Shown: positions 11,111-11,321 of the stretch, one piece after another
Numbering within the stretch: position 1 is the stretch's first letter
How the letters are laid out: each line of letters begins with the position of its first letter
Assembly: GCF_009914755.1 (NCBI RefSeq)
Contig: NC_060934.1
From: the human T2T-CHM13v2.0 reference genome, Homo sapiens
Strand: one strand, 5' to 3'
Length of the DNA: 64,000 nucleotides
Made by a program: the position numbers and the translations under genes
The notes under the pieces: model-generated
Database searches by the model: none
Told to the model about the DNA's origin: nothing
What the model saw: the letters and a program-made list of their open reading frames with translations, nothing else

Positions 11111-11183
11111 TGGCTCCCTCGGTGGCCTTCTCGGTGCGGTGGGCCAGGCCCTCGGCAGCCAGCTTTCCCAGGCCTCCCAACAT
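11111..11183 (-). pseudogene. FAM25-family exon 1 fragment ([24 protein letters not shown]). Exons 2 and 3 not found.
   Basis: Start of ORF 10896..11183(-) matches the FAM25A/C/G N-terminus as recalled. Intact ATG and GTGAGG donor from 11110. No FAM25 exon 2 (VHAVEEVVKEVV) or exon 3 sequence seen downstream. Confidence 0.85.
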
Positions 11184-11236
11184 CGTGTGGCAGCAGACAG
11201 TGGTGAACTAGGAGGCTGAGGACTGGCCCAACATGC

Positions 11237-11321
11237 TTTTATAGCTGCCTCTGGTGCCTATCTAGGCTCTGGGGCAACAAGCCCTCGCCCCAGCCCAGTA
11301 GGAGGCTGGACAGGTGAGTCA
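11237..11321 (-). promoter_or_regulatory. FAM25-type core promoter: TATAAAA (11243-11237) and AP-1 site TGAGTCA (11315-11321)
   Basis: Canonical TATA box 54 nt upstream of the FAM25-like ATG, with an AP-1 consensus about 75 nt further upstream. Confidence 0.65.

What the first reader, a model, noticed from the sequence alone, without database searches (positions are those of the whole stretch)
11111..11321. Orphan FAM25 promoter and exon 1 in phase with SYNPO2L exon 4: a possible fusion isoform
Seen: an intact TATA box, AP-1 site, ATG and splice donor, but no FAM25 exons 2-3 downstream. The next strong acceptors on this strand belong to SYNPO2L, 9-10 kb away. The FAM25 exon ends in phase 1 (73 nt). 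SYNPO2L exons 2 and 3 need phases 0 and 2, which would frameshift, but exon 3 ends in phase 1 (772 nt cumulative), so exon 4 accepts phase 1. Known: FAM25 genes are expressed in squamous epithelium, and SYNPO2L has a natural PDZ-less short isoform that starts from an alternative first exon. Inference: a duplicated epithelial promoter could drive an in-frame FAM25(24 aa)-SYNPO2L actin-binding protein outside muscle.
Basis: partly seen in the sequence, partly recalled or inferred. Interest (0 to 1): 0.7.

Follow-up and report, generated by a model that had tools for sequence, protein, structure and literature searches.

The report
Skin-type promoter parked before muscle gene
A duplicated front end of the squamous-epithelium gene FAM25, which has lost its other exons and its stop-of-transcript signal, sits just upstream of the muscle gene SYNPO2L and likely acts as a borrowed promoter that would explain why SYNPO2L RNA appears in the lining of the oesophagus.

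Summary
On the minus strand lie an intact FAM25 AP-1 site, TATA box, ATG and donor (73 coding nt, phase 1). Against the intact copy at C10:87.9 Mb, this copy lacks one clean 2,694-nt block holding exons 2 and 3 and the poly(A) signal. The duplicon ends 3.5 kb upstream of SYNPO2L, same strand. The frames are right: joining exon 2 gives an 88-aa out-of-frame ORF, exon 3 gives 25 aa, exon 4 gives an open 744 aa. One correction: exon 4 lies 14.8 kb away, not 9-10 kb, so the fusion needs exons 2 and 3 skipped. Published data fit promoter capture: SYNPO2L is 20.6-fold higher in microdissected differentiated than basal oesophageal epithelium, and FAM25A rises with oesophageal differentiation. No junction read, CAGE tag or fusion protein was found or testable here. 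Verdict: promoter capture likely (0.6); the in-frame exon 4 fusion as a substantial product about 0.3. A new case of a known kind.

The parts
11315..11321 (-). AP-1 site of the FAM25 promoter
   Evidence: identical in 5 of 5 aligned copies
11326..11352 (-). two GC boxes (11352-11347, 11331-11326), SP/KLF-type by recalled consensus
11237..11243 (-). TATA box
   Evidence: intact in 5 of 5 aligned copies; degenerate in the older 50.87 Mb copy
11111..11210 (-). FAM25 exon 1. Start near 11210 is inferred from TATA spacing. Coding 11183-11111, 73 nt, phase 1; peptide same as in the 87.9 Mb copy; locus-specific synonymous changes at 11180 and 11166
9481..11110 (-). retained 5' part of FAM25 intron 1, about 97% identical to intact copies
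9834..10171 (-). 338-nt solo-LTR-like element with a 6-nt target-site repeat; its poly(A) hexamer is altered at 9990 in this copy only, intact in 4 of 4 others
   Evidence: the LTR label rests on its ends and target-site repeat, no repeat library was searched
9480..9481 (-). junction where 2,694 nt (rest of intron 1, exon 2, intron 2, exon 3, poly(A) signal) of the 87.9 Mb copy are missing
6989..9480 (-). FAM25 3' flank; duplicon ends near 6989, next to Alu-like sequence, 3.5 kb upstream of the SYNPO2L start
3242..3453 (-). SYNPO2L exon 1 (own promoter; no strong acceptor in front)
   Evidence: hub annotation
1553..1704 (-). SYNPO2L exon 2: nearest annotated acceptor, out of frame with FAM25; holds Met70
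563..1077 (-). SYNPO2L exon 3: out of frame with FAM25 by either route. Exon 4, the only annotated acceptor in frame with the FAM25 exon, lies outside the window (C10:74,520,303, L013 position 5303)

Best explanation
A segmental duplicate of FAM25 that lost exons 2-3 and its poly(A) signal lies 7.7 kb upstream of SYNPO2L on the same strand, and its intact promoter likely drives read-through transcripts that are predicted to splice into SYNPO2L in differentiated squamous cells. Shown: the anatomy, the 2,694-nt loss and the frames. Inferred: promoter activity and splicing. The default splice is likely to exon 2, where the FAM25 start codon opens an 88-codon out-of-frame ORF that stops 476 nt before the last junction and would invite nonsense-mediated decay. 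Protein would then need leaky scanning to Met70 (908 aa). Skipping to exon 4 gives an open 744-aa frame that would escape decay and so could be over-represented among stable RNAs. Either route is predicted to give SYNPO2L without an intact PDZ domain, like the natural 753-aa short form.
For: Promoter elements, ATG and donor are intact and shared with the intact copies. Own 3' exons and poly(A) signal are gone, and the intronic LTR-like hexamer is also altered. SYNPO2L heads the list of genes higher in microdissected differentiated than basal oesophageal epithelium, 20.6-fold, and is 63-fold lower in tumour than in differentiated cells (PMC3283499, passages), so muscle contamination is unlikely. 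It is in a supplementary gene list of a stratified-epithelium study (PMC4620585, passage) and in the oesophagitis panel (PMC13400048, passage). FAM25A rises 3.6-fold with oesophageal differentiation in culture and falls 50.6-fold in oesophagitis (PMC4454568, passage). Both locus-derived coding changes are synonymous (2 of 2; chance 0.09-0.13). Recalled, not from a call: the Ensembl SYNPO2L gene span ends near hg38 73,663,803; AGAP5 coordinates convert that to window 11,219-11,228, between the TATA box and the ATG.
Against: No transcript evidence could be obtained. No FAM25-SYNPO2L protein among 38 FAM25 hits (24 of 38 sequences read, all 38 at most 206 aa long), 120 listed of 435 SYNPO2L hits or 70 short SYNPO2L hits. 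Primate forms collapse into one cluster and no row was named as human FAM25A, so this is weak. RefSeq has no model here (hub table). Atrial RNA-seq found three SYNPO2L starts, none here (PMC11477451, passages and supplement S1 passages), though that is the wrong tissue. Four AATAAA hexamers lie between the donor and SYNPO2L exon 1 (7630, 6288, 6073, 3668), and 18 candidate acceptors precede exon 2. An intact promoter is expected at 3% divergence without any selection. The expression data do not say which promoter is used.
Confidence: 0.6

Rival explanations
1. The duplicated FAM25 regulatory block (or another element) acts as an enhancer on SYNPO2L's own promoters; the FAM25 exon is not part of the RNA.
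For: SYNPO2L has at least three starts of its own; the duplicon ends 3.5 kb from the first; array data cannot tell promoters apart.
Against: The core promoter and donor are intact and the FAM25 terminator is gone. The recalled Ensembl span points at this exon (recall).
Confidence: 0.2
2. It is a dead or unproductive pseudogene fragment: silent, or giving short unstable RNAs that end at cryptic acceptors or poly(A) sites before SYNPO2L. Epithelial SYNPO2L has another cause.
For: No RefSeq model; 18 candidate acceptors and several AATAAA hexamers intervene; other FAM25 copies are broken (nonsense codon at 47.25 Mb, degenerate TATA at 50.87 Mb); a convergent antisense RNA spans the exon (hub table).
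Against: Matching differentiation pattern of FAM25A and SYNPO2L; no window-unique change between 11395 and 11215 (about 2 expected, not significant).
Confidence: 0.2
3. Sub-case of the best explanation, not additive: the main stable product is the exon 1 to exon 4 in-frame fusion, a 744-aa protein with 24 FAM25 residues.
For: Open frame; exon 4 already takes several alternative first exons; the out-of-frame routes carry early stops; the peptide is unchanged.
Against: Needs a 14.8-kb intron that skips exons 2 and 3, whose acceptors score like exon 4's; known direct partners of exon 4 start inside intron 3; no fusion protein seen.
Confidence: 0.3

Closest known systems
FAM25A/C/G (PF15825 family; gene names for the copies are recalled)
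   Same: Promoter, exon 1 and 5' intron 1 are about 97% identical; 24-residue peptide identical to the 87.9 Mb copy.
   Different: No exon 2, exon 3 or poly(A) signal, so it cannot make FAM25 protein.
SYNPO2L short isoform CHAPb, 753 aa
   Same: A short phase-1 first exon joined to exon 4, no PDZ domain.
   Different: Its first exon lies in intron 3, needs no skipping and is conserved in mammals; the FAM25 exon is a duplicated foreign exon 14.8 kb upstream.
SYNPO2L.N1/N2 atrial transcripts (PMC11477451)
   Same: Extra first exons spliced to exon 4 that standard annotation missed.
   Different: They start in intron 3, are called non-coding and were found in atrium.
Duplication-born fusion or promoter-capture genes such as CHRFAM7A, USP6, HYDIN2 (recalled, no call)
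   Same: A partial segmental duplicate placed next to an unrelated gene supplies a new promoter or first exons and a new expression site.
   Different: Here the recipient would be an intact single-copy gene gaining an extra promoter; the chimeric RNA is not shown.
AGAP duplicons of chromosome 10 (PMC11534156)
   Same: The window's AGAP5 belongs to this catarrhine family; the paper notes FAM25 sequence beside AGAP copies and gene conversion between copies.
   Different: The paper has 0 mentions of SYNPO2L in its main text.

Membership tests
Functional FAM25 gene | Promoter and coding exon 1 intact | tested here: met
Functional FAM25 gene | Exons 2 and 3 present | tested here: not met
Functional FAM25 gene | Own poly(A) signal | tested here: not met
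   falls inside the missing block
Functional FAM25 gene | Pfam PF15825 match | tested here: inconclusive
   24-aa peptide matched 0 families; probably too short; its homologues carry PF15825
Duplication-derived promoter capture / fusion gene | Partial duplicate upstream of an unrelated gene on the same strand | tested here: met
   hub annotation
Duplication-derived promoter capture / fusion gene | Donor gene's own 3' end lost | tested here: met
Duplication-derived promoter capture / fusion gene | Chimeric spliced RNA from this locus | not testable with these tools
   no RNA data; paper and supplement searches showed none
Duplication-derived promoter capture / fusion gene | Open fused reading frame | tested here: inconclusive
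   open for exon 4 only, closed for exons 2 and 3; the used junction is unknown
Duplication-derived promoter capture / fusion gene | Recipient expressed in the donor's tissue pattern | tested here: met
   literature passages only, correlation
Duplication-derived promoter capture / fusion gene | New expression limited to lineages that carry the duplicate | not testable with these tools
   no other primate or mouse genome or expression data held (no relatives)
Duplication-derived promoter capture / fusion gene | Fusion protein detected | tested here: inconclusive
   none among cluster representatives, which can hide it

The most novel reading that the evidence does not exclude
An ape- or catarrhine-specific duplication handed a sarcomeric actin-binding gene a keratinocyte promoter and first exon; differentiated squamous cells splice it straight to SYNPO2L exon 4 and make a 744-aa FAM25-SYNPO2L fusion protein. 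This, not the muscle isoforms, would be the SYNPO2L signal used in oesophagitis panels and lost in squamous cancer.
Probability: 0.3. Interest if true: 0.72.

Novelty: new member of a known kind. Interest (0 to 1): 0.52.

Why it matters
SYNPO2L is studied as a heart and skeletal muscle gene at an atrial fibrillation locus, yet it is among the strongest differentiation markers of human oesophageal epithelium and sits on a diagnostic panel; the passages read here give no reason for that. A captured FAM25 promoter would explain it, predict that species without the duplicate lack the expression, and give a clear case of a duplication rewiring an intact neighbour. It is checkable in a day with public RNA-seq, because two exon positions mark this copy. 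If Ensembl already holds a transcript from this exon, as recalled, the new part is its FAM25 origin and its tissue role.

Tried and rejected
Degenerate FAM25 exons 2/3 downstream that could capture the donor: not found. Fusion protein in protein databases: 0 seen in three searches; weak, see above. Print: a search for FAM25 with SYNPO2L gave 2 papers; one is a gene list, the other showed 0 hits in the 300,000 of 771,734 characters held. Searches listed nothing on such a transcript by title or abstract start; the recalled identifiers of a third Ensembl transcript had 0 occurrences. Supplement term searches: PMC7038929 (only 344 characters held, tables not seen), PMC10261907, PMC4824105 (11 SYNPO2L rows, none with FAM25; file 1 not searched), PMC11464533, PMC10410469, PMC11319638. 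Unseen supplements may hold the junction. Gene-conversion mosaic within the 5' segment: runs test not significant (36 runs of 79 sites, p 0.19), so not claimed for that segment. Splicing into SYNPO2L exon 1: AG sites at 3348, 3309 and 3303 keep the frame open but have poor pyrimidine tracts (8-9 of 20), judged unlikely. Splice into the short isoform's first exon: out of frame, 70 aa. Known RNA families in 3400-13000: 0. No structure prediction was run, as it could not decide the question.

Full report
Observation. The minus strand shows an AP-1 site (11321-11315), two GC boxes, a TATA box (11243-11237), an ATG at 11183 and a GT donor after 11111. The coding part is 73 nt, phase 1. A genome search with 601 nt found the window plus five chr10 copies at 97, 96, 96, 96 and 91%. 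A protein search with the exon's frame returned hits named FAM25A or FAM25C with Pfam PF15825. The identity of the element is therefore secure.

What was lost. Aligned to the intact copy at C10:87.9 Mb, the window follows it to 9481, jumps 2,694 nt and resumes at 9480; the other three complete copies give gaps of about 2,730-2,740 nt at the same place. The missing block holds exon 2, exon 3 and the poly(A) signal; the right break lies a few bases after that signal. No clear microhomology is seen. Sensitive blastn found no remnant of either exon in the window or in L013. The homology ends near 6989, 3.5 kb before the SYNPO2L start at 3453. A second possible terminator, the poly(A) hexamer of a 338-nt solo-LTR-like element in intron 1, is altered in this copy only (4 of 4 others intact); with 34 window-unique changes in 2,620 nt that has about an 8% chance by my arithmetic, so it is only consistent, not significant.

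History. The part 5' of the junction differs from the four complete copies by about 3%; the first 1.1 kb 3' of it differs by 6-7%, and 7680-6990 by 3.5-5.4% (three copies). This may mean an older duplicate whose 5' part was refreshed by gene conversion, which PMC11534156 suggests for the neighbouring AGAP copies (passages), but the divergence is uneven and a runs test within the 5' part was not significant. I treat this as inference. That paper dates the chromosome 10 AGAP expansion to the last 25 million years or so. No other primate genome was available.

Reading frames. SYNPO2L coding exons give 977 aa; the short form gives 753 aa. FAM25 exon to exon 2-3-4 gives 88 aa, stopping 39 nt into exon 3; the in-frame Met70 lies inside that ORF behind two further ATGs, so only leaky scanning would give the 908-aa form. 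To exon 3: 25 aa. To exon 2 then 4: 87 aa. To exon 4: 744 aa, open. Intron lengths are 9,406, 10,033 and 14,807 nt. The PDZ domain maps to residues 11-85 in the gibbon protein, so the 908-aa and 744-aa products both lack an intact PDZ domain. Against it, exons 2, 3 and 4 have similar acceptors by a crude count (13, 14, 14 pyrimidines of 17), and the first exons known to join exon 4 directly start inside intron 3 (PMC11477451, passages and supplement S1 passages, compared by eye). The same scan passed 18 of 668 AG sites before exon 2; it is not a trained splice model.

Selection. Using the older 50.87 Mb copy as outgroup, 14 changes in 11600-10172 are derived in the window copy; two fall in the coding exon and both are synonymous (chance 0.09-0.13). 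This is a weak hint only. They also serve as locus-specific read markers.

Expression in print. In laser-microdissected normal oesophagus from 12 patients, SYNPO2L was the top gene lower in basal than in differentiated cells (20.6-fold) and 63-fold lower in tumour than in differentiated cells (PMC3283499, passages). It appears in a supplementary gene list of a stratified-epithelium study (PMC4620585, one passage) and in the oesophagitis diagnostic panel, in a table that also lists FAM25A and FAM25C among the top expressed genes (PMC13400048, passages). FAM25A rises 3.6-fold in differentiating oesophageal cultures and falls 18-fold with IL-13 and 50.6-fold in disease (PMC4454568, one passage). 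Muscle-centred papers describe two or three promoters or isoforms and none at this exon in the passages seen (PMC7985167, PMC13025873, PMC11477451). These data show that SYNPO2L RNA follows a FAM25-like pattern; they do not show which promoter makes it.

A recalled lead. I recall that the Ensembl SYNPO2L gene ends near hg38 chr10:73,663,803, about 7.8 kb beyond the RefSeq start, with a third short transcript. No call shows this, and its recalled identifiers were not found in print. Ensembl AGAP5 ends, set against the hub's window positions, give an offset of 73,652,575-73,652,584, which places that number at window 11,219-11,228, between the TATA box and the ATG. If the recall is right, transcription from this exon into SYNPO2L is already annotated, though I do not know to which exon it splices. 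This raises the odds of promoter capture and lowers its novelty.

Negative results. No FAM25-SYNPO2L protein was seen among 38 FAM25 hits (24 read), 120 listed of 435 long SYNPO2L hits or 70 short ones. Clustering at 90% puts 121 sequences under one gibbon representative, so a fusion could be hidden. Paper and supplement searches are listed under Tried and rejected; none showed the junction, and key tables were not held.

Verdict. The element is a real 3'-truncated FAM25 duplicate, not a FAM25 gene. It most likely works as a captured squamous promoter for SYNPO2L (0.6). The in-frame exon 4 fusion is a sub-case at about 0.3. An enhancer-only role (0.2) and a dead fragment (0.2) remain. The kind is known (duplication-driven promoter capture; examples recalled); this case was not found in the searches run. 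Interest 0.52: modest surprise, a standing oddity explained if true, and a cheap decisive test.

Noticed in passing
C10:50,870,200-50,871,650 (L012) and C10:46,694,000-46,699,700 (L015): One FAM25 copy has exon 1 with a degenerate TATA box and no exons 2-3 in the 10 kb fetched; another has exons 2-3 and the 3' flank but no exon 1 match. They may be halves of one older copy split by a rearrangement; one search places FAM25 sequence at an ape inversion breakpoint.
   Followed up: partly
L011 (C10:47.25 Mb), FAM25 exon 1: This otherwise complete copy carries a nonsense codon in exon 1.
   Followed up: no
window 11053-11037: Six positions where the window copy agrees with the older 50.87 Mb copy against all four complete copies, so those four share a derived or converted tract.
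   Followed up: partly
window 11115-11106 and 567-558: The FAM25 exon 1 donor and the SYNPO2L exon 3 donor share 10 nt around the splice site, which can mislead short-overhang junction mapping.
   Followed up: partly
window 1463-22865 (+): SYNPO2L-AS1 runs antisense across the orphan FAM25 exon; transcription could collide or be co-regulated (hub table).
   Followed up: no
SYNPO2L exon 4 to MYOZ1 (outside window): A chimeric-RNA table lists SYNPO2L-MYOZ1 read-through junctions in ESC and testis samples (PMC4824105 supplement rows).
   Followed up: no
proteins P0045 and P0065: Alpaca and tamandua gene models give 910-912 aa SYNPO2L forms starting at the residue equal to Met70, which is Met in 50 of the 50 proteins (of 120 examined) that matched the pattern.
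   Followed up: no
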